Source: Naegleria gruberi (Eukaryota). Taken from it: a stretch of 64,000 bases of DNA. This document shows positions 10,782 through 48,120 of this stretch, piece after piece. Every line of letters begins with the position of its first letter. The stretch's first letter is position 1. The notes below the pieces were generated by a model, which made no database searches, was not told the DNA's origin, and saw nothing but the letters and a program-made list of their open reading frames with translations. A program made the translations under genes and the position numbers. The stretch is from NCBI GenBank assembly GCA_000004985.1, contig GG738932.1; one strand, 5' to 3'.

Positions 10782-12137
10782 ATGATGAACTCACAATTAT
10801 CTCCTGAACGAAGCTTAAAGAAAGATGAGCCGAAGCTCTCTTGGCTGCACACTCACGTTGCACCATTGTTTTTAATGCTCGTCACTCCACCTTGTGCTTT
10901 TTTATATTGGTACACTTGCGAACACCTTGGTGGCTCTGTCATTGCTCTTTTTAATATGTTCGGAAAGGAAGGTATCATTAACTCTATCGTCTCCATTGTT
11001 CAGCCTTATATTTTAGGATCTAAGGTTGCTTGGGCAATTATTGTGGTGTTCTCTATTTTGCAATTAACATTGATGAAAGTTTTGCCAGGAAAAAAGTTTA
11101 ATGGCCCGATGACTCCTAAAGGAAATCTACCAGTCTACACAGACAATGGATTATTAGCTTATTTAATTACCATTATGCTATTCTTCCTTTGCTCAAGCAC
11201 TGGTCTTAATTTATTCCCTTCCTCAATTCTTTATAACCATTTTCCATACTTGATTGGAGCCTTGAACATTTTCAGTTTGGTTTTTTGTCTCTTCCTTCAA
11301 ATCAAAGGCATGTATTTCCCAAGCAGCACAGATTGTGGCTCAAATGAAGGAAATTTCATTATGGATTACTATTGGGGAACTGAATTGCATCCAGTTGTTT
11401 TTGGTTTTGATGTTAAGGTCTTTACGAATTGTAGATTCGGAATGATGAGCTGGCCTTTACTTATTTTATCATTTGCTGCCAAACAATACGAAGTCACTGG
11501 TCAACTTAGCGACTCTATGATCATTAATTTGGTTATTCAATTCATCTACCTTACCAAGTTTTACATGTGGGAAAGTGGCTACTTGTGCTCAATTGATATT
11601 ATGCATGATAGAGCTGGTTATTACATTTGTTGGGGATGTTTAGTGTGGGTACCATCTGTTTACACTTCCACATCCTTGTACATTTCCAAGTATCCAAACA
11701 ATTTGGGCCCTTATTGGACTGCATTCATCTTGATTGGAGGTGCTTCAGCAGTCATCCTTAACTATTTGGCAGATATCCAACGTCAAAATGTACGTAAGGC
11801 AAACGGAAAATGCCTTGTTTGGGGAAAGAAACCAGCACTCATTGAGGGTGAAATCATTGCTGAAAATGGAGATAAGAAAAAGTTCATCTTGTTAATATGT
11901 GGTTTTTGGGGTATCACCAGACATTTTCATTATGTTATGGAATTGCTGGGAACATTTTTCTGGACTGTTCCAGCACTGTTCAATAACTTCTTGCCATACT
12001 TTTATTTATTTTTCTTAACAATATTGTTGTTCCATAGAGCAGAAAGAGACCAGAAGAGATGTAGCAAGAAGTATGGTAAATATTGGGAAGAATATTGCAG
12101 ACGAGTTCCATACAAGGTAATTCCTTATGTATTTTAG
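10782..12137 (+). CDS. Sterol reductase of the DHCR7/ERG4/ERG24 family (451 aa), single exon
   Basis: Sterol-reductase signatures GNFIMDYYWGTELHPV and GFWGITRHFHYVMELLG. The C-terminus LLFHRAERDQKRCSKKYGKYWEEYCRRVPYKVIPYVF is typical of 7-dehydrocholesterol reductase and C-24(28) reductase. Multi-pass membrane protein. Confidence 0.85.
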   Translation: MMNSQLSPERSLKKDEPKLSWLHTHVAPLFLMLVTPPCAFLYWYTCEHLGGSVIALFNMFGKEGIINSIVSIVQPYILGSKVAWAIIVVFSILQLTLMKVLPGKKFNGPMTPKGNLPVYTDNGLLAYLITIMLFFLCSSTGLNLFPSSILYNHFPYLIGALNIFSLVFCLFLQIKGMYFPSSTDCGSNEGNFIMDYYWGTELHPVVFGFDVKVFTNCRFGMMSWPLLILSFAAKQYEVTGQLSDSMIINLVIQFIYLTKFYMWESGYLCSIDIMHDRAGYYICWGCLVWVPSVYTSTSLYISKYPNNLGPYWTAFILIGGASAVILNYLADIQRQNVRKANGKCLVWGKKPALIEGEIIAENGDKKKFILLICGFWGITRHFHYVMELLGTFFWTVPALFNNFLPYFYLFFLTILLFHRAERDQKRCSKKYGKYWEEYCRRVPYKVIPYVF

Positions 12138-16500: not shown

Positions 16501-19500
16501 TAATTTTTGGTTGATTCGGGAAAGATTCGAATAGTATGTTCATATTTAAATCTAATAGGAACCAATAGAAAGTTAAAGATCTACCATCAAATGAATAACT
16601 GGAAGAACCATCAGCTGTAATGGCATCACATGAACTATATTGATTCACATTTGGCATTGTAATTACTGCATGTGAAAAGTCAACTGTAATCTCTGGAACC
16701 GTAATGACAAGTGAAATGTATTTAGGAGTGGAACGAACCATTATATTTTCAAAAGCCTGAGTATTGATTTGAATTGTGGTTGTTCCAGGTGTGAAATTAA
16801 AATCCAAAGAACCAAATGAAATCATGAAAATGTCATTCTTTTTGTCAGAGTACTGACATTTAACATTCGATTGCTTACTTCCAAAAATAGATAAATCAAG
16901 TGGATTGATAATCTTTTCACAAGGAATTGAATCATTCATCTGTGGAGAATGTAATATAAATGTAACTCCTGTAAAATCTGGTGAAATCAAAGCTGGACCA
17001 ACAATTTTAGTATTACACAATTTACCATAAAAGTTAATTGCACAAAATTCACACTTAGTTCCAGACCAGAAACCTTCTTCATAATTTGAAGAACAGAGGC
17101 ATTGTCCTTCTGAATTACAATCGCCATGATTTGAGCAATTGATATGTCTGTCACAACTATTTAAACTGGAATTCTGATTATTGAATGTTTCATTATTCAG
17201 GTTAGATGTTGTTGAATTTACAGTGCTTTGATTATTTAGAATTGTATTATTGACTGATAATGTCGAATTATTTGTGACATTACTTGAATTACTATAATTG
17301 GAATTTGTATTGTTAGAAATAATTGTTGAATTAATAATTAAAGTGTTGTTTGTGCTGTTAGTGATATTTGATGTTTGATTGACCTGGTTTTGAACTTCAA
17401 TTACTGAACTATTTCCAAAAGTAGTTTGATTGTTAATTAGAGTTTGAATAAGTGTTGAATTTTGATGTTGTGAAATATTTTCTACTGTTGACTGATTGAT
17501 AAATGTGTTATTTGAATCACTTATTGTGTTATTAGAAATTAGTTCTGTAGTATTAGAAGTATTGGAAGTTTCGTTAACAATGGATGAATTATTGGAAACA
17601 ATAGTTTGGGAAGAATTGTTTTGAATTTTTCCATTATTATTGGATTCTGTTGATGTTTCGTTAACAATTTGTGAATTATCCAGAGTTTGATTAGTTTCAA
17701 CAATGCTATTATTCGAAACATTTGTTTCATTCATAAGAATAGTCGTTTCGTTATCAACAACTCCAATTGATGAATTTGTGGTTGTATTCACTTGTTGTGA
17801 AATATTTGAACTATTTCCCATAAAAGTAGAATTAGTAGTGCTGTTCACTGAATTATTTGTTGAATTCACAAATGATTCATTTCCATAATTAGTAGAATTG
17901 GTAATACTGGAATAATTGCTTGTACTATTGCTGTTCATTGAAATATTCAGTAATTGTGTAGAATTACCTAGTGTATTATTATTAGAAACTGATTGCGTTG
18001 TATTCGACAGTGAGTCATTTCCATGAATATTTGTAGTATTGGCAACAGTGGAATTGGAAATTGTTTGTGAAGAATTACTTTCCATTGAGGAATTATTCAG
18101 TACAATCGTAGTATTTGATAAATTTGAAGAATTACCAACTGTAATATTATTAGAAACTTGAGTAGTATTAACTATTGATGAATAATTATTCAATGTGGAA
18201 TTATTTAATACTGTGCTATTGTAAACAGTATTGTTCTTAATCATTGACGAGTTGGAATTAATAATAGTTTGATTGACTGAAACTGAACTGTTTGTAACAA
18301 CAGTTGAATTGGAAGAAACATTAGACGAAACTACTGATTGAGAAGAAATACATTTCGAATCAACAAACGGTGAATAAGGATCCCAATTAGTAAAATTCAT
18401 GAACTGAGTAGTTTCGAATATAGTTACCATCGTTGCCGAATCTGGTATAATCAGAGTTCCATAAATTTTTGAATTCGTAGCTGTCACTTCAGTGGCCAAA
18501 ATATTTCCATGAATTTCAGAATCTTCCTCAATTTGCAATAAACTAACAGACCAATAAACATTATTATAACTTGAACAATTACGAAATTCGAAAGTGACAC
18601 CACGTAAGATTAAATAACCACCAGAAATGTACACATCTTCATATCCATCAATAATAACTTTGGAAGTTAGAACACAATTACTATCCGTGAAATGATAATT
18701 CCTTCCTCCTTTAAGAGTCAAAGAATGAGAAGAACAATCAATTTGAATAGTTGATCCTCTATTCGAAAGTGAACTAAATATCGAATCAAACAAGGACACC
18801 ATCATTCTTCCATAGACATCATGTTCATCTTGCACTGTGGAAGCAGTCACTCTACCTGAAAAATAAGTCTGATAATAAGCCAACTTTCCAGGAAGTGAAA
18901 TTCTGTCCATAATAGAAACGCTACTTGCAGCAACAATCATATTGTAACCTTGGAAAGGATTATAGAACTTTCTTGTTTGATTACAATAGGAAGATGTCCA
19001 TCCAATTGAACAGGTACAAGTGTTAAAGGACCCACAAACACCATGTCCATTACAAACTAAACTGGTATCTGTATTGGAAATTCCAAAACATTGAGTATGT
19101 TCACATGATGAACCATCATAATTGGAATTACAAACACATTGATCAGAATCTGTGCATTGGCCATGTCCAGAACATACTTTTGGATCCAAACGATCCAATC
19201 CAAAACAATTGTAATATTCAGAATATTGACAATAGGCAGAATTCTGATAGGGAGAATCACACACACAAGTATCCCAATTTACACATCGTCCATGTCCATA
19301 ACAAACACTTGGATCATTCGCAGGAATGGAATTACAAGTTGGAGGAACATTTGAGCTACAGTCTTCAAAATAATATCCCAATTCACAAACACAATTATCA
19401 CTCGATACACAAGTTCCATGATCTGAACATACTCCAGATTGTCCTACTAGCTTACCAAAACAATTTGGAGGAATAATTTCACAATAATTACCACTATATC

Positions 19501-21526
19501 CAGAATTACATTGACAATGATCATCTGATAAGCATTTACCATTTCCACTACAAACTGCAGAACTTGTATTTACAATTCCATAACATGAACTTAAAGTTTT
19601 GTGACAGGATGGAGAAAGATAAGGTTGATAAGGATCAAAGCTTGAAAAGTTGTTAAAGACAACTGCATTCGAGAAGCCAGTCAATACGTTTCGAACAATG
19701 ATAGTTCCATAAATATTGGCATTATCTAAGGCTAAAGAGGAAGCAGCAATGAAGAGAATTCCATAAAAATCTCCTGTAATTCTTGTTTGTGTTGTTTGCC
19801 AATAAATATTATTGTAACTTGCACAATTTTTGAAAACAAAGTTGACATTGGAAATGGAAATATCAGAAGTTGCTGAAATTGAAATCAAATCAGGACCATC
19901 AAATGTCATTGTAATTGAATCAAAGGTGCAACTTGACTGTGTTTGATAGTTTAGTCCTCCCTTAAACTCTATATCTTGACCACACACAAAATCAATCTTA
20001 TCAGTTAAAAGGAATTGATTGTAAAAACTATTGGCAGTTGCTATTAATTGAATACTTTTTTCCTTAGATAAACTATTACTATTTAAGGAAGGTACTACAA
20101 ACATTGAATAAATATCTGGATAATAAGAAAAGTAAGCTGGAAATGAAATTGAAGAATAAACATAAAGTCCTGAATCAAAGGATATAAAATTGTAACCCTG
20201 AAATGGATTGTAAACATGTTTGTAATTTTGACACTTATCTCCATACCATCCAATTTCACATGAACAATTATTGTTAGATAGACAAGCACCATGTCCAGAA
20301 CAAACTTGACTATCATCTTTTCCATATCCATAACAAGTTAAACGACAAAAATATTGCTGAACTACATTATCACATAGACACGTGTCTTGTGAAATACAAT
20401 GTCCACCACCTCCGCAAGCATCTGGATGGTCAGGATTAACTCCATTGCAGTCGAAATGTTTAGTCTTACATTCAATACCAGAGTATCCATTGTTGCATTG
20501 ACATTGATCTTGTCCAATGCATTTGCCATGTCCATTGCAAACTGTTTTGGCTGTGGCCAATTTTCCATAACAAATGTTGACTGTAGGTTTTGGACATGAA
20601 GGAGAAAGATGCGATTGATAAGGATCCCAAATAGAAAAGTTACTAAAAGTTACCATTGAACTATCAAGTTGTGAAGTACGACCATACCAAAGAATAACAG
20701 TTCCATGAATGATTGCTTGATTTGGCTCAAAGTCTCTGACCTGAATGATTCCATAAAAATCTCCACTCACCCTCATTGTTGAAAGATACCAATAAATTGT
20801 ATTGTAACTGGCACAATTGAGAAATTTAAAAGTGACATCCTTTACATTCAAATAACTGATCGAAATAAAAACTGGTTCAGATCCATTAAATGTTAATGTT
20901 ACACCATCAAAAACACAATCATCAGGGGTATAGTACCTTTCACCTCCTTGGAAATAGAAATCTTGACCACAAATTAGTGGTTTAAAAAAGGGTGGAGTTC
21001 CAGTGGCAAAGTAATCAAAGACATTGATTGATGTAACTTGCATGACATATGAATGTGTAGAGTAGCTGTCAAATGACTGTTTTAGAGATGTCATAAGAGG
21101 TGGCTGTGGATTATCCGAATAGAAACTTGAAAAATATCCAGGCAGTACAACATCTGAAACTGGAAGTGAGGATTCGAGTGAAATCATACTATATCCTTGA
21201 AATGGATTGTAAACATGTCTGTAATTTTCACACTTATCTCCATACCATCCAATTTCACATGAACAATTATTGAATGACATGCAAGCACCATGTCCAGAAC
21301 ATACAAATGGGGACCATTGTGCATCATATTCACCACCTTCTCCAAAACATGAAGTATATTGACACACGTATCCATGATAATTTTCATGGCATTGACACCT
21401 ATTATCGCTCACACACGTACCATGTCCACTACAAACATTTGGATCTGTGGCTTCTAAATTTCTACAGGTGTGAGCAAATACTAATGTACAAATGACTTGA
21501 ATAAGGAACATCATTGTCATCATCAT
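13586..21526 (-). CDS. Giant type-I transmembrane protein of about 2646 aa. Signal peptide, three tandem [EGF-EGF plus YNPFQGY] modules, further tenascin-type EGF repeats (CxGHGxC), a mucin-like Asn/Ser/Thr-rich N-glycosylated stalk, a cysteine-poor beta-rich region, a GPS-like motif, one TM helix and a cytoplasmic tail.
   Basis: Uninterrupted ORF 13586-21835; the probable start is the Met run MMMTMMFLIQVICTLVFAHT (signal peptide) at 21526. There are at least 15 CSGHG(T/A)C...C.C..G(Y/W).G..C EGF units. A ~550-aa stretch contains hundreds of NxS/T sequons. The C-terminal block is C-x16-C-x11-C-x-C, i.e. CGDFRNGSPNTIRTDCTIQNRNATHIMCTCVRLTNVFAM, and lies about 10 aa before the TM helix AIVISIVASGIILLIIIGLIFACI. 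It matches the GPS consensus C.C.HLT.FA[VM]. Confidence 0.85.
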   Translation of the reverse strand: MMMTMMFLIQVICTLVFAHTCRNLEATDPNVCSGHGTCVSDNRCQCHENYHGYVCQYTSCFGEGGEYDAQWSPFVCSGHGACMSFNNCSCEIGWYGDKCENYRHVYNPFQGYSMISLESSLPVSDVVLPGYFSSFYSDNPQPPLMTSLKQSFDSYSTHSYVMQVTSINVFDYFATGTPPFFKPLICGQDFYFQGGERYYTPDDCVFDGVTLTFNGSEPVFISISYLNVKDVTFKFLNCASYNTIYWYLSTMRVSGDFYGIIQVRDFEPNQAIIHGTVILWYGRTSQLDSSMVTFSNFSIWDPYQSHLSPSCPKPTVNICYGKLATAKTVCNGHGKCIGQDQCQCNNGYSGIECKTKHFDCNGVNPDHPDACGGGGHCISQDTCLCDNVVQQYFCRLTCYGYGKDDSQVCSGHGACLSNNNCSCEIGWYGDKCQNYKHVYNPFQGYNFISFDSGLYVYSSISFPAYFSYYPDIYSMFVVPSLNSNSLSKEKSIQLIATANSFYNQFLLTDKIDFVCGQDIEFKGGLNYQTQSSCTFDSITMTFDGPDLISISATSDISISNVNFVFKNCASYNNIYWQTTQTRITGDFYGILFIAASSLALDNANIYGTIIVRNVLTGFSNAVVFNNFSSFDPYQPYLSPSCHKTLSSCYGIVNTSSAVCSGNGKCLSDDHCQCNSGYSGNYCEIIPPNCFGKLVGQSGVCSDHGTCVSSDNCVCELGYYFEDCSSNVPPTCNSIPANDPSVCYGHGRCVNWDTCVCDSPYQNSAYCQYSEYYNCFGLDRLDPKVCSGHGQCTDSDQCVCNSNYDGSSCEHTQCFGISNTDTSLVCNGHGVCGSFNTCTCSIGWTSSYCNQTRKFYNPFQGYNMIVAASSVSIMDRISLPGKLAYYQTYFSGRVTASTVQDEHDVYGRMMVSLFDSIFSSLSNRGSTIQIDCSSHSLTLKGGRNYHFTDSNCVLTSKVIIDGYEDVYISGGYLILRGVTFEFRNCSSYNNVYWSVSLLQIEEDSEIHGNILATEVTATNSKIYGTLIIPDSATMVTIFETTQFMNFTNWDPYSPFVDSKCISSQSVVSSNVSSNSTVVTNSSVSVNQTIINSNSSMIKNNTVYNSTVLNNSTLNNYSSIVNTTQVSNNITVGNSSNLSNTTIVLNNSSMESNSSQTISNSTVANTTNIHGNDSLSNTTQSVSNNNTLGNSTQLLNISMNSNSTSNYSSITNSTNYGNESFVNSTNNSVNSTTNSTFMGNSSNISQQVNTTTNSSIGVVDNETTILMNETNVSNNSIVETNQTLDNSQIVNETSTESNNNGKIQNNSSQTIVSNNSSIVNETSNTSNTTELISNNTISDSNNTFINQSTVENISQHQNSTLIQTLINNQTTFGNSSVIEVQNQVNQTSNITNSTNNTLIINSTIISNNTNSNYSNSSNVTNNSTLSVNNTILNNQSTVNSTTSNLNNETFNNQNSSLNSCDRHINCSNHGDCNSEGQCLCSSNYEEGFWSGTKCEFCAINFYGKLCNTKIVGPALISPDFTGVTFILHSPQMNDSIPCEKIINPLDLSIFGSKQSNVKCQYSDKKNDIFMISFGSLDFNFTPGTTTIQINTQAFENIMVRSTPKYISLVITVPEITVDFSHAVITMPNVNQYSSCDAITADGSSSYSFDGRSLTFYWFLLDLNMNILFESFPNQPKITLDSSVPPNSYRIGLKVKSNFLNTNSSLSVSSIFNKVAAPLPMLTMYKGETIIEKYSNEFPITLKKIVIDSSCKSSTDSVQIAWSKVSGPVIEYTIDTFNNLFIPKLTVFGNNTYIFRVSVFYTANQKVSLDVTLRTKSPDLQLNILQVAAVSELTSLQIDFVDPEAIFNEESTEVWKWTSNNQSPGLLSTLQSLSSSKSVQFSISSDLLESRIDSLVLNLEITKSDGRSIQKSTTIHFNHIPPLVNIVSIEPSSPVIVPGQLITIQTLTVSNSSNSTWVLNGKIIDSSSIIQHSTVESETNTISIESSDLEQGSVNSLSIFTYDTSTGLSTQTSYTFQVASTPRICSCDVTPKEGIALSTDFLFYCENCKTSDNNIDYRYGFIDDRSQSKIVMYNLGEVYSTKLPAPFTGTSVTCFFDIVDKTTGAFSTTFSNVTIYKPLVQNIAEIQNIVQQWESQSIQYTIDGDFSKSVYQSASTSRTDSVFLKEAFSSYANTRRDSITCQNGVDVAGECKCRDGWIGKHCELSISDFSNIQGTKLNILKDMMFVVNNTAGMSDEYLSLLSFAIDSLLVNYPYLDTNTISESLSTLNLFLNYALSDQEVRISGGVDVLIYNCLEFAYKYITNRQYVIDQTSNSDNLHTALKKSSSLQARSSSIGSAGKSKKGPFFSAVLNRNTLYDFPKSIFDPISKTKVIFESKFFTTPNSASLVRKPFISVLTVSHDIFSLNSRLQNGKKIGNRATFAKLISPIVSVDFSELPVQADGSKISYIIPYNITEDTTDGIALTNLEFAEKEKIISCGDFRNGSPNTIRTDCTIQNRNATHIMCTCVRLTNVFAMETTVVTYHSYLYVEAIVISIVASGIILLIIIGLIFACIKLRKNRKKEMTIVADTHSSFSLRVQEVEMESFYGHTPVGLLHDPVPSPKEKSRNLPIQSVYHAKRKTSQVIPLRVDLMDERHCDNLSSNGSDCEYSQ

Positions 21527-22443
21527 GATGAAAATATTCAAGCCATGTCTTGTTGGTTTTTTCCCATTTTGCAATGATGATTTTGATCGGATAGAAATAT
21601 AATTATTATTATTAGTATTATTATTATTACATTGAGTGTAAAATCCTCTTATTGTTGTTGAAGAATTTAATTTACAATGAGGCGGATGTGTTGAAAATAT
21701 CATTTTCAAACAAATCTCTCTATAATACCTAGTAAAAGATAAAGCCAGTAATTGAATGCTTTTTTTAATGTTATTTAAACTTATATTAACTAAGGAAGAG
21801 ATAGGTGCATTCTTGTAGAGTTGTGTGGCCAACACAGCCCTTAATGAATTGTTCGAATTATTTACTGTTGGATATAAAGAGTTCCGTTCTGCGCATTACA
21901 TTTTGAAGAACTACAATACCGCTTATGAGCAGTAGTAAGGAGGAGATATGCTTGTGAAGTAAATTGTTCTTTTTACACAATCAGAAAAACCATGCTGATG
22001 AAAGGCATGAGACAGATATTGCTTTAGTGTTCATAGGACTGCAGAGTTGATGGTTCTCTGGATCAAATATCATTATGCAACAAGACACGACCTGCCAAAG
22101 AATAATCCTTGTTGAACCCTTAATTGAAGATCCTTGTATATTAAGGAAATTAAAATGACGATTTTGGAGTGAATCATATCTCTGTATTCCCAACCCGTAC
22201 TGCATTTGTACTGTCCTCCTTATTTTGAACATCTGTAAATCACTGTACAGCTTGGGCCACAACAACATTGCATTAAAAAAACAAGCTTATCACTCATCAA
22301 TAATGTGAAGAGAATTTACCAAGCTATTAATTGGTACTTTTTGTAATTTTGTAATATAAATCGATACAATTGAACGATTCCGATCCGTGTTGAAATTTGT
22401 TCTTTACATGAATGTAACAATTAAATTGGCAGACAGCTGTAAG

Positions 22444-28011: not shown

Positions 28012-28943
28012 TATGTTTCGAATATTGTTTAGTGTTGTTTTTTTGTCTGTTGATGTAACACTGTGCTGTCTATATCCAACAGTTCAAAAATTCTTCAGCT
28101 TTTCACTTATTGTGTAACTTTATTCGAATGAGGAAGACACTCAAATTGTTATTGGATTCCAAATTGTTTCTTCATTGACCAAATTTAATGTGTACTTTCC
28201 ATTAATGCCAAGTTGAAAATTGACACCTTGCTTCTTTTTAAAAAACTCCCAAAACATCAATTTCCTTCCAACATGTAAGGTGCTAAACGAGTCAAGACAA
28301 GACTTTTTGTAGTATGGTTGTGAAAAGGAAATGGATTGAGTCACGTTGATTTATGGCACATTTACTTTACCATTTTCAAAATCTAATAGGTCAAACTGTA
28401 GTAAAACATGTTGAGGTGATGTTGTAAAAGGGGTATTTATTGAAATGATGTGGTGTTTATTAACGAGCTCTTCAATCAAGTCGACCTCATAATTGAATTC
28501 CATTCGAAAATAAAAAATTCTGCACGTTTTTAATCTATTTGGCTCTTCAAAATACCAAAAAGTGGTCTTACCAAATTCATTCTGATTTACCGCTCAAACT
28601 CGTTATGAATAAATTTAAAAAAAAAATAATCCAATCACTTACTCTCTGCTTCAATGACTCTACCACTTCTAGAATTTACTTCATAAAGATGAAGAATTTT
28701 CTGCACAGTTCATCCAACAAGTTACCATTAACACCTTCCAAGAAAGTAGATTTTCCTTATGAAAAGGCCTGCTAATCCTATTTCTAACCTTACTAGTTGT
28801 TAATAGTTGAAAAACATAGCTCGGGCGCACAATTTGATGATGAAAGATATGTTGTTGATGAAAGAGAACCTTTCAATAGATGGTTATCGTGGTTTATTGT
28901 CGTGCCATTATCTCTTCTGTTTCGCGATATTAAAACAAACCAA

Positions 28944-31004
28944 ATGGAAAAAAGAATGTCGACAACAGGTTCTTCCTCATCATCGTCATCTACATCTTCA
29001 AACTCTCCACAAGCAACAACACCATCATCAAATAATAATAATAATAACTCCAATACAAATAATAATAATAATAATAATACTGATGGTAATAAAGAACAAG
29101 AACACGATGAAAATATTCAAAACGGATTCTATTCAATATCTTGTTTAAATTGTAGAAAATCCCATCGATCCTGCAATAAACAATTTCCAACATGTTCTGA
29201 TTGTTTTGAAAGGAATCAGGAATGTATCTATGAATGTCCAAAGAAGAAGGGACGTAAGAAGGGAAGTAGAAATCAGAAAACTCTCGCAACAACAACAACA
29301 ACTGATAATCAACAAGCTAATAGAACAACAACAAAATCTAGGAAACAAAAAACTAATGCTGCAACTTCTCCTCCAGAAGCAACTAATTCATCCTCTGCCT
29401 CCTCATCCTCTTCAAATAATGTAGTGGGTGTTCAACAACAAGATGATTATACAGATTTGTTGAATTTAATTAATAATTATTCTCCATCTTCCAATCAATC
29501 AACTCATCAACTTATTAGAAGAATTTATCAACCCTATGTTAGAATGCAACAACACTTTTTGAATGATAGTATTAGAAAGAGAACTGTTGATATATTCTTT
29601 GAAGTGGTAGGAATGGGATATGATATCATTAGTAGACCAAAATTGGAACAATTAGCATTTGATTATATGAATGATAATATTGAGGAGGATGGAATATTTG
29701 CAAAGAATGTTGGATTTCAAGTTTCTGCAACGAGACACTCTGCAAAAGCAATGCTCTTTGCTATGCAAGCAATGGGAGAACAACGAATGGGAAATTTGGA
29801 TCTTGCTCACAAGGCCTACATGGAATCGAGACATCAATTGACACAATCATTTGATAATATTGATAATACCTATGTGAAAATTGCTTATGGATTATTGTCT
29901 TGCTATTTGGCAGGTGAGGGAGATGATGTGACTGCTCACTATTATCTCAATAATCTCCAACATGCTCTCGAACGTCCAGCCACCAACAATGCCTATCTCC
30001 TCCTAGAGACTGGAGATATCAGCGAGCCAGAAAGACAAGCAAAGCATTTCAATACCTTTATGCTGAAACAAAAAGTTTGCCTCGATCACAACAATCCACA
30101 AGATTTGAATATTTGGGAAGGTTTCATTTCAATGTACACTGCCAAGACACATGAAAATCCTCCTCAAGTGATTACAGATATTATTAGACGACAACCTTCT
30201 CCTCAATTGTTGGCAGTTGTTGATTTGATTATTTCAGTAATGAATACTGCATCAAAATTACATCTTTTCACAGAGAGTCAACGAAAAACATCAGCTGTCT
30301 ATGTTTCCATGATGAATTATTCAGCAAAGATTGCTGTCTTGCTCACTCTGGGAATTCAAGGTGGCGCCTTGTTGGATAATCTGGCAGATAGTGTTACTGC
30401 TTTGACTGATAGTGATATTTTCATGCTGTTGCCTTGTAGTGCCATTCACTACTTTGCCATTGCAATGAATTATAGAGTGAAACAATTCCAATTTGTGCAA
30501 GCAATTATTCAACAAAAATTGGATACTGGAAGAAGTTTAATGTCAATATTTGAAGACCAATATGAAAAACACTACTTTGAAATGGTTATGAAGGACATGA
30601 AGGCCCTCACTAGAATGAATACCAGATTTAAACGTGTGGAAAAGTACTATAGCACTTTAATTAGCAATTTGAAAGCAATTTTACAATGGAAATCGGATAG
30701 AATGGTGGAAATTATTCAAAAAATTGGATTTATTTCAGAGCATATTGGAGTTGAACAATTCAATCCTTACCAGAATACATTGCACAATGAACAAGTAATT
30801 GGCTCGGCTCTAAGCAAACAAGCTTTACCATCATCTTCATTTATTTCATCATTTTCATCATTTGAAAAGAACACATCAGCACCAACAATTTCTCAAAGTG
30901 ATCAACAACTCCTTTTGGATTCATTGGATAATCTTCTCGGCTCTTCAGCAAATAATGACGAGTTCCTAAACTTTGACATTCCAGATTTCACATCACAACA
31001 TTAA
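28944..31004 (+). CDS. Zn(II)2Cys6 binuclear-cluster transcription factor (about 686 aa from ATG 28944; the ORF extends upstream to 28797)
   Basis: CLNCRKSHRSCNKQFPTCSDCFERNQEC has the C-x2-C-x6-C-x6-C-x2-C-x6-C spacing of a Zn2Cys6 domain, followed by the basic stretch KKKGRKKGSR. S/N/T-rich N-terminal and linker regions, then a long helical middle-homology-like domain. TAA stop at 31002-31004. Confidence 0.8.
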   Translation: MEKRMSTTGSSSSSSSTSSNSPQATTPSSNNNNNNSNTNNNNNNNTDGNKEQEHDENIQNGFYSISCLNCRKSHRSCNKQFPTCSDCFERNQECIYECPKKKGRKKGSRNQKTLATTTTTDNQQANRTTTKSRKQKTNAATSPPEATNSSSASSSSSNNVVGVQQQDDYTDLLNLINNYSPSSNQSTHQLIRRIYQPYVRMQQHFLNDSIRKRTVDIFFEVVGMGYDIISRPKLEQLAFDYMNDNIEEDGIFAKNVGFQVSATRHSAKAMLFAMQAMGEQRMGNLDLAHKAYMESRHQLTQSFDNIDNTYVKIAYGLLSCYLAGEGDDVTAHYYLNNLQHALERPATNNAYLLLETGDISEPERQAKHFNTFMLKQKVCLDHNNPQDLNIWEGFISMYTAKTHENPPQVITDIIRRQPSPQLLAVVDLIISVMNTASKLHLFTESQRKTSAVYVSMMNYSAKIAVLLTLGIQGGALLDNLADSVTALTDSDIFMLLPCSAIHYFAIAMNYRVKQFQFVQAIIQQKLDTGRSLMSIFEDQYEKHYFEMVMKDMKALTRMNTRFKRVEKYYSTLISNLKAILQWKSDRMVEIIQKIGFISEHIGVEQFNPYQNTLHNEQVIGSALSKQALPSSSFISSFSSFEKNTSAPTISQSDQQLLLDSLDNLLGSSANNDEFLNFDIPDFTSQH

Positions 31005-43466: not shown

Positions 43467-44862
43467 TTAACATTCCCAATCAAATGTTAAATCCGAATAT
43501 TCACATCTTGCTCTTGTCATTGCTTTCAAATTAGCTAACATCCATTCAATTCTCTTTCCAGTCAATCGAATGCCATGATAATAAGTATTTGAAGAGAATG
43601 AACAAACTCCAATTTTCCATCTCAAATATTCTTCATTCTCTGGTGTTGAAAAACTTGTAAGGTTATAAATGTTTTTTCCTTTTAAGTCATCTTCAACACC
43701 AAGCATTTCATTAGAACCATTGGATCCAGAACAATAGAATGAGCCAGTTGATGATTCAAATAAGGTGTGATGCCATCCACACCAAATATCAACAATTGGT
43801 TGAGGTGTTTCAATTAATACAGGAAATCCAAAATCACTTGTCACTTCTCCTTGTGAAAGTTGTCCATATGAATTGAATCCAAAGCCATAAACCTTTCTAC
43901 TTTCTGATTTTCATTATTTTGTATTTTCAAAAGAAGCGAAATAACTTACTAGTCAAAACAATGGTGTGAAGAGCTCCAAGAGCAAGCTTAATCACATGTT
44001 CTCCTAAATCATTCATTGGTTGGTGTCGAACGAATCGAGGATTATCTCCACTACTATTTCCCAATCCTTGTTGAGAATAAACTCCCCATCCTTGATTTCA
44101 AATACATGAATATTCATGTCAATTATTCAATAAAATTTGCAATTACAAACCTGTTGTGAGTAGTTTTCCATTAGCAGTAACTACCAAAGTTCTATAATAA
44201 GCAGGATACACATCAAGAATATGATCATCCTCATCCAGAACATACTCAAATTTAATTTTTCCTCCACCACACCCACCCAAACATCCATACGCATCAGATC
44301 CTGTTCCATAAACCTCATGATTATTAGTAATTGCCATCATGTGAGATAATCCAGTTCCAACATACTCAAAATGCAATGCTTCTTCCTGTCCAAACTTTTC
44401 CTCCTTCCACACATCATTAATTGAAAACAATCTTCCACTCTCCATCACAGCATATAACACTGAATTGGTAGCACACAATTGTTTGAAAGGACTTTTATCC
44501 ATCTCTCTCAATTTCTCAGTATTCAATTCATGTAATTTGTCTGGATCCTCACCATCATCATAATTTGGATTTCCAATTACAAAAGATCCTCTTCCGAGCA
44601 GCAATACCTTACCACTCTTCATCAGGAAGATTACGATCGAATCACTATTAGTAACACTCAATACAATATCATCATGATCGGGAAAAAGTATGGTAGGGAC
44701 AGCATGGGAGCCTGATCTATAGACGATCGATTCGTTGATGGAGTTACAGTTGGGAGTGTAGAGTTCGGGTCTGTAGAGACGATAAAAGTTTAATTCATAC
44801 GATGCCATTTTTTTTTTACTGTCGTGGAGTTCATTGCTTTCAATATCAAAAAAGAACATCAT
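43467..44862 (-). CDS. RCC1-repeat (beta-propeller) protein of about 429 aa. Exons 44862..44151, 44090..43950 and 43903..43467.
   Basis: Intron 1 is 44091-44150 (60 nt, GTTTGT...AAG) and intron 2 is 43904-43949 (46 nt, GTAAGT...CAG), both phase 1. The spliced product has repeated RCC1 motifs (VYGTGSDAYGCLG, GWGVYSQQGLGNSSGDNP, VYGFGFNSYGQLSQGE, CSGSNGSNEMLGV). The start may instead be MASYE at 44808. Confidence 0.7.
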
Positions 44863-44965: not shown

Positions 44966-45038
44966 GCTGGCGTAGCTCAGTCGGTAGAGCGTTGGTCTAA
45001 TAAGCCATTGGTCGCCGGTTCGATCCCGTCCGTCAGCA
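44966..45038 (+). tRNA. tRNA-Ile (anticodon AAU)
   Basis: A 73-nt cloverleaf. Acceptor GCTGGCG/CGTCAGC, D-arm GCTC-AGTCGGTA-GAGC, anticodon loop CTAATAA, T-loop GGTTCGATCC. One C-T mismatch in the T-stem and a G-T pair in the acceptor stem. Confidence 0.8.
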
Positions 45039-45154: not shown

Positions 45155-46084
45155 TTAAAAATAAGAATCAACCTTCTTACATTCGTATTTGGCACAGACC
45201 TTCTTATTTTCATATTCACAACAAACCTTCTTTCCACCAACTAACTTGTGCTTCTTACAGACCTTCTTTCCCTTTGACTTTTTAATGCATTTCTTGTAAT
45301 TCTTCTTGTGGATACATTTGGAAGGAACAGTTTCATGTTTACAACAAACCTTCTTGGTGTTGTACTTGACACATTTGGAATGAGTCTTGTGTTTCTTACA
45401 GAATTGGACGTTCTTGTATTGGGCACAGAAATGTTTTGTCTTGTGTTCACAACATTTCTTGAAATTCTTCTTTTCCTTACAATATTTGACATTCTTGAAT
45501 TTGCAACATTTCTTGGCATATGACACAACACGACATTTCTTGACACTGCTGCATTTTGGAGGAGCATATGAATCAGTAGTGTACTTGTCACAAACCTTGT
45601 GAGTTTCACACTTCTTGATTGGAACCTTTTCGTATTTTTCACAAACTTTCTTTGTGGCATGTTTTACACATTTAGTTTCGTTTGTGTATTTGGAACAATA
45701 CTTCTTACTTCCCTTCTTGGCACAGACCTTCTTATTTCCATAGGAATCACAAGTTTTCCATGTCTTATGCTTGGCACAGGTTGTCTTTTTAGTTTCGTAT
45801 TTGACACATCTCTTGGTTGGCTTACTATACTTGTCGCATTTAGAATAATTCTTGTATTTGAGACATTTTCCAGCACCAACAACAGCATACTTATCGCAAA
45901 CCTTCTTTTGACCTTCGAGTTTGTGTTTCAAACATTTACCTTTAACTGTCTTGTAAGAAACACATTTCTTCTCACAAGGAGGTTTGTAAGTATCAGGTTT
46001 TGGTTGATAGGAATCAGTTGCTTGAACTGCCAAAATGGAAAGTAAGAGCACAAGGCCGATTACAATGATTTGCTTGGTTTGCAT
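45155..46084 (-). CDS. Secreted Lys/Cys-rich repetitive protein (309 aa)
   Basis: Signal peptide MQTKQIIVIGLVLLLSILAVQA. The rest is about 30 iterations of C-x-K-[YH]-x(5-8) (KKVCDKY, KKCVSYK, KCVKH...), with roughly 55 Cys and 80 Lys. Overlapping ORFs on the + strand are shadows of this gene. Confidence 0.7.
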   Translation of the reverse strand: MQTKQIIVIGLVLLLSILAVQATDSYQPKPDTYKPPCEKKCVSYKTVKGKCLKHKLEGQKKVCDKYAVVGAGKCLKYKNYSKCDKYSKPTKRCVKYETKKTTCAKHKTWKTCDSYGNKKVCAKKGSKKYCSKYTNETKCVKHATKKVCEKYEKVPIKKCETHKVCDKYTTDSYAPPKCSSVKKCRVVSYAKKCCKFKNVKYCKEKKNFKKCCEHKTKHFCAQYKNVQFCKKHKTHSKCVKYNTKKVCCKHETVPSKCIHKKNYKKCIKKSKGKKVCKKHKLVGGKKVCCEYENKKVCAKYECKKVDSYF

Positions 46085-46527
46085 TTTTTTCTTGTTGAAT
46101 AAAGATTGAGATAATGTTTCGAATATTTATGTGAAATGCAAAGACTACATTTAAAGGAAAATTGAAATTTATGGTAAATGAAAGAACTCGAGAAATTGTA
46201 TAAATAGGGAGGATTGCTTTGGTGTGATTCCATTTCAATATATTTCTTGAAATATTGATTTTCTAAATTTAGTTAGATTGGTGATCAAAGTTTGAGCTTT
46301 GGATTTCTTGCTCTTTATCTAGAAATTGATCATCATTGATTATTTACTGTACTTTATCCAATTCTTGATTGGATTATTAAGAAACTTGAGTATTTTTGTC
46401 AATTTATCCCATAAGAATCTATGTTGTCCATTCTATTCAACATTCGAATCAATTTAGAACAGAATGGATTCAACTTGTCTTTTCTTCAATAAACTCAAAC
46501 AATGTGAAGAAACTAAAATTTATTCAA

Positions 46528-48120
46528 TTATCGAGATAGACCTCTCTTTCTAGTCGTTTGGCTGATATTTACAGAATTTCCACAATTACTGGAAGAACCT
46601 CCCGACTTGGCAGAGAAGATATTCGAATTCTCAAAAAACTTGGTTCCATTTAACAGATCCAAAACTGTTCTCTTTTTAGAATTCTCAATGTCTAAACTCA
46701 CAATTGGAAATAAAATTTCAATACATTTCACATAGGTATCTGTACAAATCGTTTGATTTCTACTCGAATGTTGAACTCGACTTGGAAGAATCGTTGGTTC
46801 AGAATTTGCCTTATTTACAATAAAAAGTGTAGAATTGTTAAATCCCTGATCATCTATCAAGCTGCTATTCGAATCTGATGAATGGAATGATGTTACAGCT
46901 GCTCTATCATTGGAAGGATCCAAAATTGCCAACTTGATTGTTGCGCAATGGAGAGGAGTATTTCCCTCCTTATCTTGGTATTCCAAAACCTTGAGACACT
47001 TGTTAGTATTCTCTTCATTGAGCATTAAGAGGAAGGTTTTCAACACTTCATCGGCTCCATATCTACAGGCTGTGTGAATGGGTGTTTGACCGCTCTTGTC
47101 TGATTGACAAAGCATTTTCAAGTAAATTTCTCTGTTAAGGAATAGAGCAAGGATTCGAACAACATCCGCTGAATTATTGATACACGAAAGATGGAATAAA
47201 TTTCTCGATTCATGGTCCATGTGCTTATTTACATTACTCAATTCGCTGAAATCATACAGGGAAATGAACATGGAGAGGAATCTCATCTTGACATTCTTAT
47301 TTACATTTGAATAATCATTCGTCCTAGCAAAATCCTTAATTAATTGCATTAACGGTGTGAGACCGTTTTCATCCTTTGCACACAGCTGTAGCTTATCAGA
47401 AGCGCCGAAATGATTCTTTGTAATCAAAATTAAACCTTCCAAATCGTATTGCTCAACCACGAGATGCAAACAAGTTTTTGAATTACTTCTTCTACAATTG
47501 ACTAAATTTGGGTTAAAATCTAAAATAGCAGTAACTACTCTGTGGTGTCGATTCTTAATTGCTAAATGAATTGGCGTGTTTCCAAACGCATCTTTTGAAT
47601 CAATGCCAATGTCTTCTTCAGATTTTCTATTGAACACCTTTCTTCCAGCTAAAAGTAATAAAACACATTCTAAGGAGCCATTCGAAGCTGCGTAATGAAG
47701 TGGTGTTGCTTGACCTCTGTCTTTAACATTCAAAATGACGTCCTTTCTCTTCAGAAGCAGCGAGACAATGTCAGAGTGATTGAGTGAGCATGCCTTGTGG
47801 AGGATTGTTGATCCGTGTGAAGTTTCGTCTGGAATCATTGGATTGAATAAATTGTTACTAGAATATTGTTGAACAGCCAAATGGTTTAAATTCTCACCAT
47901 CTGCCCATTCTAACAAAGAACTGACAGCTTGGAAATCATTTTGTGTGACTGCTTGGAATAAAAGAGTTGACCATTCACGTGGACTAAAGTGAATGAAATG
48001 ATTAGAAAGTAGTATGTGTGAAAATATTGACGAAAAGTCGTCTATGGGCTGTGATGAGTCGGAAGTGGTGTGAGAAGATGTTTCGAATTTGGGAAGACTA
48101 GAAGGAGGAAGAGTCATCAT
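46528..48120 (-). CDS. Ankyrin-repeat protein (530 aa)
   Basis: Several ANK units (GSTILHKACSLNHSDIVSLLL, ATPLHYAASNGSLECVLLLL, GNTPIHLAIKNRHHRVVTAIL, GQTPIHTACRYGADEVLKTFL, GNTPLHCATIK). Confidence 0.8.
   Translation of the reverse strand: MMTLPPSSLPKFETSSHTTSDSSQPIDDFSSIFSHILLSNHFIHFSPREWSTLLFQAVTQNDFQAVSSLLEWADGENLNHLAVQQYSSNNLFNPMIPDETSHGSTILHKACSLNHSDIVSLLLKRKDVILNVKDRGQATPLHYAASNGSLECVLLLLAGRKVFNRKSEEDIGIDSKDAFGNTPIHLAIKNRHHRVVTAILDFNPNLVNCRRSNSKTCLHLVVEQYDLEGLILITKNHFGASDKLQLCAKDENGLTPLMQLIKDFARTNDYSNVNKNVKMRFLSMFISLYDFSELSNVNKHMDHESRNLFHLSCINNSADVVRILALFLNREIYLKMLCQSDKSGQTPIHTACRYGADEVLKTFLLMLNEENTNKCLKVLEYQDKEGNTPLHCATIKLAILDPSNDRAAVTSFHSSDSNSSLIDDQGFNNSTLFIVNKANSEPTILPSRVQHSSRNQTICTDTYVKCIEILFPIVSLDIENSKKRTVLDLLNGTKFFENSNIFSAKSGGSSSNCGNSVNISQTTRKRGLSR

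What the first reader, a model, noticed from the sequence alone, without database searches (positions are those of the whole stretch)
45155..46084. Lys/Cys-rich secreted protein built from about 30 short C-x-K-[YH]-x5-8 repeats
After a signal peptide the 309-aa product is almost entirely the periodic pattern K-K-x-C-x-K-Y-x-x-K. About 18% of residues are Cys and about 26% are Lys, and the protein begins and ends with DSY. I do not recognise the family. The periodic cysteines suggest a disulfide cross-linked extracellular, coat or matrix component. The basic charge could alternatively suit binding to polyanions such as nucleic acid or cell wall.
Basis: seen in the sequence. Interest (0 to 1): 0.5.

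Follow-up and report, generated by a model that had tools for sequence, protein, structure and literature searches.

The report
Giant cystine-ladder hairpin protein of Naegleria
An unannotated Naegleria gruberi gene encodes a secreted, very lysine-rich protein whose ~30 short cysteine repeats appear to zip its two halves into a single ~40 nm beta-hairpin held by 15 evenly spaced disulfide rungs; I found no described counterpart, and its role, probably in the cyst wall or another matrix, is untested.

Summary
The ORF is real: 45155-46084, minus strand, 309 aa. It has a signal peptide, 28% Lys and a 9-residue Cys period that no shuffle reached.

The window is Naegleria gruberi, because a neighbouring gene is 100% identical to a gruberi protein. 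This ORF is absent from the protein collections searched, so it is probably unannotated.

It belongs to a small family found only in Naegleria, Willaertia and environmental contigs. The family has no Pfam match, no PDB sequence match and no fold match. It has 24 invariant Cys columns.

The repeats are not independent modules. AlphaFold2 with 23 homologues (mean pLDDT 82) pairs residues 37-165 antiparallel with 178-302. Four sequence observations agree:
- Cys spacings are mirror-symmetric (0 of 20,000 permutations).
- Predicted partner Cys are lost only together (170 both present, 5 both absent, 0 single).
- Indels coincide at mirrored positions (p about 0.001).
- Longer paralogues insert at the hairpin tip.

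This gives a 15-rung disulfide-laddered, polycationic rod (net +67). D-x-Y motifs sit at both ends, and there are four surplus Cys.

Function is inferred only. An extracellular or cyst-wall structural cross-linker is most likely. A cationic antibacterial effector is the main rival.

The parts
45155..46084 (-). Complete single-exon CDS: 309 codons plus a TAA stop at 45155-45157.
   Evidence: ORF list and sequence. In-frame stops lie upstream of the ATG. Homologues align from end to end.
46019..46084 (-). Signal peptide, aa 1-22 (MQTKQIIVIGLVLLLSILAVQA). The predicted cleavage is after VQA.
   Evidence: Read from the sequence. AF2 predicts a helix at 4-17. All full-length paralogues have an equivalent hydrophobic N-terminus.
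45977..46018 (-). N-terminal tail at the base of the hairpin, aa 23-36 (TDSYQPKPDTYKPP). It carries two D-x-Y-x-P motifs.
   Evidence: pLDDT is below 50 for residues 21-36. D-x-Y is enriched in non-ladder segments.
45590..45976 (-). N-strand of the ladder, aa 37-165. It has 15 framework Cys: 37, 41, 51, 63, 74, 83, 93, 103, 112, 121, 130, 139, 148, 159, 165.
   Evidence: AF2 strands E39-57, E60-69, E74-86 and E90-165. Mirror test. Rung contingency.
45554..45589 (-). Hairpin tip loop, aa 166-177 (DKYTTDSYAPPK). Longer paralogues insert about 40-100 residues, including extra rungs, at this site.
   Evidence: AF2 predicts no strand at 166-177. Alignments show the insertions at this point.
45179..45553 (-). 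C-strand of the ladder, aa 178-302. Its framework Cys are 178, 184, 193, 202, 211, 220, 229, 238, 247, 257, 266, 276, 288, 297, 302. They pair in reverse order with the N-strand Cys, with i+j between 338 and 343.
   Evidence: AF2 strands E178-253, E257-269, E273-282 and E285-302..
45158..45178 (-). C-terminal tail at the base of the hairpin, aa 303-309 (KKVDSYF), with a D-S-Y motif.
   Evidence: pLDDT is below 50 for residues 306-309. Homologues carry 1-4 D-x-Y(-K-P) copies here.
45503..45505 (-). Surplus Cys194, the second Cys of a CC doublet. It is not part of the conserved ladder.
   Evidence: Most paralogues have only C193 at this position. The CC doublet is kept in the 58%-identical homologue L003.
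45449..45451 (-). Surplus Cys212, the second Cys of a CC doublet.
45341..45343 (-). Surplus Cys248, the second Cys of a CC doublet. Among the sequences compared it is specific to the window protein.
45218..45220 (-). Surplus Cys289, the second Cys of a CC doublet. Among the sequences compared it is specific to the window protein.
45905..45922 (-). Gly-containing bulge KLEGQK (aa 55-60). It faces KLVGGK (aa 280-285, nt 45230-45247) across the ribbon. Three residues are deleted from each side in paralogue P0008.
   Evidence: AF2 strand breaks at 58-59 and 283-284. Co-deletion is visible in the alignments and quantified.
45866..45883 (-). Gly-containing bulge VVGAGK (aa 68-73). It faces KSKGK (aa 269-273, nt 45266-45280). 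P0008 has a 2-residue deletion on one side and a 1-residue deletion on the other.
   Evidence: AF2 strand breaks at 70-73 and 270-272..

Best explanation
This is a genuine, intron-less Naegleria gruberi gene that is not in the protein collections searched. Its product enters the ER and loses a 22-residue signal peptide.

Inferred fold, with several independent lines of support: the N-terminal half (37-165) runs antiparallel to the C-terminal half (178-302). Together they form one very long two-stranded beta-hairpin. Fifteen cross-strand disulfides staple it, one every 9 residues: C165-C178, C159-C184, C148-C193, C139-C202, C130-C211, C121-C220, C112-C229, C103-C238, C93-C247, C83-C257, C74-C266, C63-C276, C51-C288, C41-C297 and C37-C302.

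The repeat K-K-x-C-x-K-[Y/H] is pseudo-palindromic. As a result the aromatic residue at C+3 on one strand faces the Lys at C-3 on the other.

The result would be a hydrophilic, polycationic rod about 125 residues long, roughly 40 nm, with net charge +67. Both ends (base tails and tip loop) are flexible and carry D-S/T-Y(-x-P) motifs. Four surplus Cys follow rung Cys on the C-strand.

Inferred function, not shown: the rod is secreted as a structural or cross-linking element of an extracellular matrix. The cyst wall is the most plausible site, since it is the only wall this naked amoeba builds. The rod would bind anionic or polysaccharide wall material along its length. It would be tied into a network through the surplus Cys and the Tyr-bearing ends.
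For: Gene and family:
- The ORF and its periodicity are confirmed.
- A neighbouring ERG4/ERG24 ORF is 100% identical to N. gruberi protein P0033.
- No identical protein exists in the collection. The best hits in the two library searches are 57-65% identical to it.
- The profile search of 1.84 billion representatives gave 24 hits at E <= 1e-3. All named members are from N. gruberi, N. fowleri, N. lovaniensis or Willaertia magna.
- 24 Cys columns are invariant at 31-43% identity.

Hairpin:
- AF2 with 23 homologues gives mean pLDDT 82, and above 90 over most of the ladder. All strand boundaries satisfy i+j of about 342-343. A 4-sequence run already paired 127-165 with 178-212.
- Mirror symmetry of inter-Cys gaps: the mean difference is 0.57 against 1.67 when permuted, and 0 of 20,000 permutations reach it. 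Direct-repeat pairing gives 1.36. The same holds in 9 other homologues and in an independently retrieved homologue, L003, at 1 of 20,000.
- At rung columns, 170 cells have both Cys, 5 have neither and 0 have only one. The two double losses are C159 with C184, and C37 with C302.
- Indels coincide in mirrored segments in 7 of 14 cells, against 1.4 expected (p = 28/20,000).
- Paralogue length differences map to the tip, and the inserts are themselves mirror-symmetric.

Ends and chemistry:
- D-x-Y is 5-fold enriched in non-ladder segments.
- The mature chain is 33.4 kDa, has GRAVY -1.14, is 16% hydrophobic, and has K86, R2 and D+E 21.
Against: - No expression, proteomic or localisation data were found for any family member. 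The cyst-wall assignment rests on elimination and analogy only.
- No carbohydrate-binding or other known domain is present.
- I could not inspect the AF2 coordinates. pTM is only 0.27, which is expected for a rod but is also uninformative.
- AF2 can over-predict long hairpins for repetitive sequences.
- From general knowledge: cross-strand disulfides strongly prefer non-hydrogen-bonded pairs. An odd, 9-residue spacing on both strands would alternate the registry in a perfectly regular ribbon. Regular bulges or unusual geometry would therefore be needed.
- The register places many Lys opposite Lys, 11 K-K pairs, which is electrostatically unfavourable without counter-ions.
- The covariation events are few: 2 double Cys losses and about 5 co-located indel events. 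The sequences are also related to each other.
Confidence: 0.5

Rival explanations
1. A cationic antibacterial or bacteria-binding effector. The disulfide-laddered polycation would be released into phagosomes or the medium of this bacterivorous amoeba. There it would bind anionic envelopes (LPS, teichoic acids) and agglutinate or permeabilise prey, acting as a giant analogue of beta-hairpin antimicrobial peptides.
For: - It has a signal peptide, net charge +67 and a predicted hairpin closed by cross-strand disulfides.
- The beta-hairpin AMP class is likewise cationic with 2 or more Cys pairs (PMC13001179 abstract).
- It is a multi-paralogue, lineage-specific, fast-diverging family, as is common for defence genes.
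Against: - It is 287 aa, not 11-25 aa. Lys greatly exceeds Arg (86 vs 2), whereas the class is Arg-enriched.
- Only 16% of residues are hydrophobic and GRAVY is -1.14, so no amphipathic face is evident.
- The conserved rod length, the conserved end motifs and the long form with an extra Cys-rich domain look more structural.
- No activity data exist.
Confidence: 0.2
2. One reading: about 30 autonomous short repeats with no long-range hairpin. Their cysteines would form local (neighbour-to-neighbour) or mainly intermolecular disulfides, giving a randomly cross-linked basic matrix or coat.
For: - The regular 9-residue Cys period is by itself compatible with local pairing.
- A periodic lattice is trivially mirror-symmetric.
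- AF2 models of repeats can be artefactual, and the first AF2 run was poor, with pLDDT 44.
Against: - The irregular gaps, not just the 9s, are mirrored: 6/6, 11/10, 12/12 and 17/18. This is significant against permutation of the same gaps.
- The first and last framework Cys are lost together in P0008, and C159 and C184 are lost together in four sequences. Under neighbour pairing, these losses would leave unpaired Cys far apart or shift every pairing.
- Indels co-occur at mirrored positions, not at parallel positions.
Confidence: 0.12
3. A polyanion-condensing or adhesive protein of the secretory pathway. It would package polyphosphate, acidic glycans or nucleic acid inside vesicles. Alternatively it would act as a Lys/Tyr-rich surface adhesive for substrate attachment, by analogy with mussel foot proteins.
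For: - Extreme positive charge and regularly spaced Lys and Tyr.
- Cross-strand K-K pairs that would favour bridging anions.
- Tyr-containing D-x-Y-K-P tail repeats in homologues.
Against: There is no direct evidence, no DOPA or hydroxylase linkage, and no homology to any adhesive or nucleic-acid-binding family. This role overlaps the matrix hypothesis and cannot be cleanly separated from it by sequence alone.
Confidence: 0.12
4. A non-functional or unexpressed ORF. It would be a decaying paralogue that the genome annotators were right to omit.
For: - It is absent from the N. gruberi protein sets in the collection.
- No transcript evidence was available to me.
Against: - The 309-codon frame is intact, with signal peptide, all 30 framework Cys, both tails and the conserved blocks retained.
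- GC3 (0.41) is joint highest of the 28 long ORFs in the window.
- A 58%-identical full-length homologue sits on a gene-sized 1,078-bp environmental contig.
- Another paralogue (NAEGRDRAFT_76199) is visibly mis-modelled, which shows the annotation handles this family badly.
Confidence: 0.04

Closest known systems
Beta-hairpin antimicrobial peptides: protegrins, tachyplesins, gomesin, arenicins and theta-defensins ('cystine ladder')
   Same: A single antiparallel hairpin closed by a ladder of cross-strand disulfides. Strongly cationic. Made through the secretory pathway.
   Different: These peptides are 11-25 residues with 2-3 rungs, are Arg-rich and are amphipathic (PMC13001179). This protein is 287 residues with 15 rungs at a fixed 9-residue pitch, has Lys 86 against Arg 2, and is only 16% hydrophobic. 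There is no sequence relationship.
Apicomplexan oocyst wall proteins (Cryptosporidium COWP family); comparison from my own knowledge, not tested here
   Same: Secreted wall proteins of a resistant stage, with cysteines at a regular spacing of about 10-12 residues. They are thought to form a disulfide-bonded matrix.
   Different: COWPs are much larger, are built of 6-Cys type I and His-rich type II domains, and are not Lys-rich. No hit linked the two. A long-range hairpin has not been proposed for them, as far as I know.
Protist cyst-wall proteins: Entamoeba Jacob lectins, Acanthamoeba Leo/Luke/Jonah lectins, Giardia CWPs and HCNCp
   Same: Signal-peptide proteins with Cys-rich modules. They occur in multi-copy, lineage-specific families and are deposited in a cyst wall (PMC2907411, PMC6541295, PMC2924369 and PMC1762436, listed).
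   Different: Those proteins contain recognisable chitin-, cellulose- or GalNAc-binding domains, LRRs or CXXC motifs. None of these is present here. Their wall location is experimentally shown, whereas here it is only a hypothesis.
   Same: High Cys content in short repeats.
   Different: There is no Pfam match. This protein has a signal peptide. There are no C-x-C or C-x-x-C clusters: the Cys autocorrelation is 0 at lags 2 and 3. Tyr is 7% and His 4%. Those families are cytosolic, and metallothioneins lack aromatic residues (own knowledge).
Lys/Tyr-rich adhesive and tanned structural proteins, such as mussel foot proteins and trematode eggshell precursors; comparison from my own knowledge
   Same: Basic, Lys- and Tyr-rich, secreted, and made of short repeats. 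Tail motifs such as IDSYKP recall the Tyr-Lys-Pro decapeptides.
   Different: There is no homology. Those proteins are largely disordered and depend on DOPA chemistry. This protein has a conserved disulfide framework and a predicted ordered ribbon.

Membership tests
Unnamed Naegleria/Willaertia Lys/Cys ladder family (NAEGRDRAFT_64508, 48501, 67458, 66117, 76199, 57793; FDP41_004030; C9374_009239; ABK040_005866) | Significant end-to-end sequence similarity, including conserved blocks such as GKCLKYKxxSKCDKYSK and RCIKKxxxKKCxKKSxGxKVC...GGK. | tested here: met
   E-values run from 1e-18 to 1e-67 with the single sequence and up to 1e-148 with the profile.
Unnamed Naegleria/Willaertia Lys/Cys ladder family | An N-terminal signal peptide plus a conserved framework of about 30 Cys with mirror-symmetric spacing. 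| tested here: met
   24 Cys columns are invariant. The mirror test gives 0 of 20,000 for the window protein and is significant in 10 of 12 sequences tested. The contingency at rung columns is 170/5/0.
[quoted passage not shown] | A single beta-hairpin closed by 2 or more intramolecular Cys pairs. | tested here: met
   Met by prediction and covariation only: the AF2 hairpin and 15 inferred rungs. It is not shown chemically.
[quoted passage not shown] | Length of 11-25 residues. | tested here: not met
   The mature chain is 287 aa. The class definition comes from the PMC13001179 abstract.
[quoted passage not shown] | Cationic, with Arg enriched over Lys. | tested here: not met
   The protein is cationic (+67), but it has K 86 and R 2.
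[quoted passage not shown] | Antimicrobial activity. | not testable with these tools
   This requires recombinant protein and killing or binding assays.
Keratin-associated proteins | A match to the Pfam keratin high-sulfur models, C-C-x-P-type pentapeptide repeats, and a cytoplasmic location with no signal peptide. | tested here: not met
   There are no Pfam hits at E <= 1. A signal peptide is present. The Cys period is 9, and only 4 CC doublets occur.
Metallothioneins | Small size, clustered C-x-C or C-x-x-C motifs, and no aromatic residues. | tested here: not met
   The Cys autocorrelation is 0 at lags 2 and 3. Tyr is 7.1% and His 3.6%, and the protein is 309 aa. There is no Pfam hit.
Protist cyst-wall lectins and CWPs (Jacob, Jessie, Leo, Luke, Jonah, Giardia CWP, HCNCp) | A recognisable carbohydrate-binding, LRR or CXXC domain. 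| tested here: not met
   Pfam was empty for the window protein and for 8 homologues. The PDB sequence search was empty.
Protist cyst-wall lectins and CWPs | Encystation-induced expression and physical presence in the wall. | not testable with these tools
   The gene identifiers appear in no paper or searched supplement.
Any solved or catalogued fold | Structural similarity of the model to a PDB or viral predicted structure. | tested here: not met

The most novel reading that the evidence does not exclude
The family defines a previously undescribed protein architecture. It is a single beta-hairpin about 125 residues per strand (roughly 40 nm), stapled by 14-18 disulfide rungs at a fixed 9-residue pitch. 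It evolves in length by inserting new rungs at its tip. Vahlkampfiid amoebae (Naegleria, Willaertia) would use it as a polycationic structural rod of the cyst wall or another secreted matrix. If so, it would be much the longest cystine ladder I know of, and it would provide first molecular candidates for Naegleria cyst-wall proteins.
Probability: 0.45. Interest if true: 0.78.

Novelty: categorically new. Interest (0 to 1): 0.62.

Why it matters
Structure. A 15-rung cystine-ladder hairpin would be a new way to build a stiff, protease- and heat-resistant nanorod from a 9-residue repeat. It comes with a simple evolutionary rule: paired Cys are lost together, indels occur at mirrored positions, and growth happens at the tip. 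The predicted disulfide map is explicit and can be falsified.

Biology. I found no published work naming the proteins of the Naegleria cyst wall. The cyst is the environmentally resistant stage of the genus, which includes the brain-eating N. fowleri, and N. fowleri has a clear homologue (FDP41_004030). A genus-specific, abundant, disulfide-locked wall or secreted protein would be a candidate diagnostic antigen. It would also offer a handle on cyst resistance.

Annotation. The gene is missing from the N. gruberi protein sets searched, and a paralogue is fused to an unrelated SAM/PB1 gene. This shows that low-complexity filters and gene callers mishandle this family.

Tried and rejected
Family assignment:
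- Pfam scans of the protein, 8 homologues and 4 weak hits gave no family.
- The PDB sequence search with the family profile gave nothing.
- A phmmer search of the N-terminal Cys-rich domain of the long form (NAEGRDRAFT_57793) against the PDB gave nothing.
- The weak profile hits P0022-P0026 (E between 1e-9 and 1e-3) are unrelated periodic-Cys low-complexity proteins or spurious translations. I rejected them as homologues.

Literature and expression:
- Ten full-text searches and three supplement searches for gene identifiers or for Naegleria cyst-wall or encystment proteins found nothing on this family.
- The 1967 Werth and Kahn cyst-wall chemistry paper is not held.

Genomic context:
- Exact-sequence look-ups failed for the N. 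gruberi paralogues. Context for P0004, P0010 and P0031 was uninformative.
- The neighbouring genes (ankyrin, RCC1-like, PIP5K, MFS, ABC, EGF-repeat giant) give no functional clue.

Other ideas considered:
- A recent DNA-level tandem expansion is rejected, because TRF finds only one weak 27-nt array.
- A simple direct duplication of the two halves would explain the Cys pattern less well than mirroring: the mean gap difference is 1.36 against 0.57.
- Codon bias as a proxy for expression gives only a weak hint.
- The first AF2 run, with 4 sequences, was too poor to use alone.
- The first metagenome locus scan failed for lack of conserved columns. The second found one locus.
Full report
**1. The observation**

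The minus strand of 45155-46084 carries an uninterrupted ATG-to-TAA ORF of 309 codons. In-frame stops lie upstream of the ATG. The product starts with a typical signal peptide, MQTKQ-IIVIGLVLLLSILAV-QA|TDSY.

It contains 87 Lys (28%), 34 Cys (11%; 11.8% of the mature chain), 22 Tyr and 11 His. The Cys figure of 18% is too high.

The strict C-x-K-[YH] motif occurs 15 times, not about 30. There are, however, 30 Cys-centred units. Spacing between successive Cys is mostly 9. The Cys autocorrelation at lag 9 is 16, and 12 at lag 18. The maximum at any lag in 5,000 shuffles was 12.

At DNA level there is essentially no tandem repeat. The periodicity is therefore an old feature maintained at protein level.

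**2. Organism and annotation status**

The window is about 33% GC. It carries intron-split eukaryotic genes: ankyrin, RCC1-like, PIP5K, MFS, ABC and a 2,749-aa EGF-repeat ORF.

The ERG4/ERG24 ORF at 10782-12137 is 100% identical over its full length to a Naegleria gruberi protein. The window is therefore N. gruberi.

The 309-aa product has no identical entry in a collection of about 15 billion proteins that includes the NCBI, UniProt and EukProt N. gruberi proteomes. Its best matches are paralogue-level, at 57-65% over parts. The gene therefore appears to be unannotated.

A paralogue, NAEGRDRAFT_76199, is visibly mis-modelled: a SAM/PB1 protein is fused to the C-half of a ladder protein.

**3. 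The family**

A profile search of 1.84 billion cluster representatives returned 24 proteins at E <= 1e-3. Every named member comes from one of four species:
- N. gruberi (NAEGRDRAFT_64508, 48501, 67458, 66117, 76199, 57793)
- N. fowleri (FDP41_004030)
- N. lovaniensis (C9374_009239)
- Willaertia magna (ABK040_005866)

The remaining hits are environmental contigs or unrelated periodic-Cys sequences, and I rejected the latter.

A further full-length 326-aa homologue, 58% identical, was retrieved from a 1,078-bp metagenome contig, L003.

None of the members has a Pfam domain. The family profile hits nothing in the PDB.

All full-length members have a signal peptide. In a 9-sequence alignment at 31-43% identity, 24 Cys columns are invariant. 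This is a folded framework, not mere low complexity.

**4. What the repeats build**

AlphaFold2 with 4 sequences was poor, with pLDDT 44, but it already paired 127-165 with 178-212. With 23 homologues the mean pLDDT rose to 82, and it exceeded 90 over most of the repeat region.

The DSSP strands are:
- N-half: E39-57, E60-69, E74-86, E90-165
- C-half: E178-253, E257-269, E273-282, E285-302

Their boundaries all satisfy i+j of about 342-343. The model is therefore a single giant antiparallel two-stranded hairpin, with its turn at DKYTTDSYAPPK (166-177).

AF2 can over-predict hairpins for repeats, so I looked for independent sequence evidence.

(a) Cys spacing. Read outward from the turn, the inter-Cys gaps on the two strands mirror each other, including the irregular ones:
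- N-strand: 6, 11, 9, 9, 9, 9, 9, 10, 10, 9, 11, 12, 10, 4
- C-strand: 6, 9.5, 8.5, 9.5, 8.5, 9, 9, 9.5, 9.5, 9, 10, 12.5, 8.5, 5

The mean difference is 0.57. It is 1.67 for permuted gaps (0 of 20,000 reach the observed value) and 1.36 for direct-repeat pairing. The same is significant in 9 other homologues and in the independently found L003 (1 of 20,000).

(b) Paired Cys loss. In a 12-sequence alignment, the 15 predicted rung pairs show 170 cells with both Cys, 5 with neither and 0 with only one.
- C159 and C184 are lost together in the 64508, 48501, FDP41_004030 and P0004 clade.
- The first and last framework Cys (C37 and C302) are lost together in NAEGRDRAFT_67458.

Neighbour-to-neighbour pairing cannot explain either event.

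(c) Mirrored indels. Indels coincide in mirrored segments in 7 of 14 cells, against 1.4 expected (p = 28/20,000). For example, the facing Gly bulges KLEGQK (55-60) and KLVGGK (280-285) each lose three residues in 67458. Both strands gain D-x-Y loops at the same rung in the 66117 and lovaniensis paralogues.

(d) Length variation. Length differences between paralogues map to the hairpin tip, and the inserted sequence is itself mirror-symmetric.

I conclude, at roughly 70-75% confidence, that the N-half and C-half are joined by a nested ladder of 15 disulfides: C165-C178, C159-C184, C148-C193 and so on to C37-C302.

**5. Properties of the rod**

Each strand is about 125 residues, which gives about 40 nm if extended. 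This length is an inference from standard beta-strand geometry.

The mature chain is 33.4 kDa with net charge +67. It has GRAVY -1.14, 16% hydrophobic residues and two N-glycosylation sequons.

The unit K-K-x-C-x-K-[Y/H] is pseudo-palindromic. In the inferred register, Tyr or His at C+3 faces Lys at C-3 of the partner strand: there are 9 K-Y and 6 K-H pairs. There are also 11 K-K pairs.

Four Cys (194, 212, 248, 289) are surplus. Each is the second residue of a CC doublet on the C-strand, and two of the doublets recur in L003. They cannot pair within a rigid ribbon, so they are candidates for intermolecular bonds.

The non-ladder parts are the N tail, the tip, the C tail and inserted loops. 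They carry D-x-Y, often as [VIP]-D-[STP]-Y-x-P, at five times the density found in the ladder. The N. fowleri homologue ends in one IDTYKP and three IDSYKP copies. Both ends of the rod therefore display the same Tyr motif.

**6. Function**

This section is inference. Naegleria trophozoites and flagellates are naked, and the only wall the organism builds is the cyst wall (general knowledge). The protein is a conserved, secreted, protease-proof-looking rod. It has sticky or cross-linkable ends, spare thiols and a polycationic surface. That fits a matrix or wall cross-linker that binds anionic or polysaccharide material.

No expression or localisation data exist to confirm this.

The main rival is a cationic bacteria-binding effector. 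It is architecturally reminiscent of beta-hairpin AMPs, but the protein fails that class's length, Arg-richness and amphipathicity features.

A polyanion-packaging or adhesive role cannot be excluded.

A dead ORF is unlikely, because the framework is intact.

**7. Caveats**

- I could not inspect the coordinates.
- pTM is 0.27.
- The odd, 9-residue pitch would alternate H-bonded and non-H-bonded registry in an ideal ribbon, whereas cross-strand disulfides prefer non-H-bonded sites (own knowledge). Regular bulges or unusual geometry must therefore exist.
- The number of independent evolutionary events is small.

**8. Novelty**

No curated family, solved structure or paper describes these proteins. 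Database entries say only 'predicted protein'. The closest concept is the 2-3-rung cystine ladder of 18-residue antimicrobial hairpins, and this protein would extend that ladder five-fold or more in a different functional context. I rate it categorically new in kind, with moderate confidence. Interest is 0.62.

Noticed in passing
window 10782-12137 (+): This is an ERG4/ERG24 sterol reductase annotated as 7-dehydrocholesterol reductase, 100% identical to the N. gruberi protein. Of the hits that carry an organism name, all apart from N. gruberi are Chlamydiota (Parachlamydiaceae), Legionellales (Tatlockia) or Gammaproteobacteria MAG proteins, at 53-60% identity. Most listed hits are unnamed metagenome proteins. 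This suggests gene transfer between amoebae and their intracellular bacteria.
   Followed up: no
window 46528-48120 (-) and L001:1132-2811 (-): The ankyrin-repeat gene just upstream of the target resembles, over about 490 aa (22-28% identity, including non-ankyrin parts), the ankyrin gene that lies next to family member P0004 on a metagenome contig. This may be a remnant of a duplicated two-gene block, although the gene orientation differs.
   Followed up: partly
window 44143-44862 (-); P0017 (Willaertia magna ABK040_005866): An RCC1-like ORF lies just downstream of the target. The Willaertia gene model fuses an RCC1-like fragment to the C-terminal part of a ladder protein. The two RCC1 pieces do not align, so conserved linkage is unproven. 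The Willaertia model is probably a mis-merge.
   Followed up: partly
window 44966-45038 (+) and 59399-59470 (-): tRNA-Ile(AAU) lies 116 bp beyond the target's stop codon, on the opposite strand. A tRNA-Met(CAU) lies further on.
   Followed up: no
window 2088-3902: A run of 1,815 N, which is an assembly gap. It produces two spurious 649-aa 'ORFs' in the ORF list and the 2.8% GC bin.
   Followed up: yes
window 13586-21835 (-): An uninterrupted 2,749-aa ORF rich in teneurin-type EGF repeats. It is another very large Cys-rich, presumably extracellular, protein in the same window.
   Followed up: no
NAEGRDRAFT_57793 (P0032), P0011, P0030, P0031 (not in the window): A 'long form' of the family carries an extra N-terminal region of about 340 aa. 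It is built of repeated 4-Cys modules (Cys gaps 18-5-5-12 and 18-5-5-8, many starting with CP). The ladder part is far less Lys-rich, and the hairpin tip is a C-P-C turn. The extra region has no Pfam or PDB match.
   Followed up: partly
window 46085-46234 (upstream of the ATG, minus strand): A TATA-like element, CTATTTATACAA, lies about 112-123 nt upstream of the start codon. The leader is A-rich (…CAAGAAAAAA-ATG). This was read from the sequence only, and its function is unverified.
   Followed up: no
L003 (Ga0115593_1350650, 1,078 bp); contigs of P0010 (1,073 bp) and P0007 (1,318 bp): Three environmental contigs that carry family members are each about the size of a single gene. L003 holds a complete 326-aa ORF with only 17 nt of 5' flank and 80 nt of 3' flank. 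This would fit transcript-derived assemblies, and hence expression in nature, but no poly(A) is present and I could not check the sample type.
   Followed up: partly
window 28797-31004 (+) and 6311-7891 (-): An ORF with a fungal-type Zn(2)-Cys(6) binuclear cluster domain and an ORF of DUF4116 repeats. Both are unrelated to the finding.
   Followed up: no
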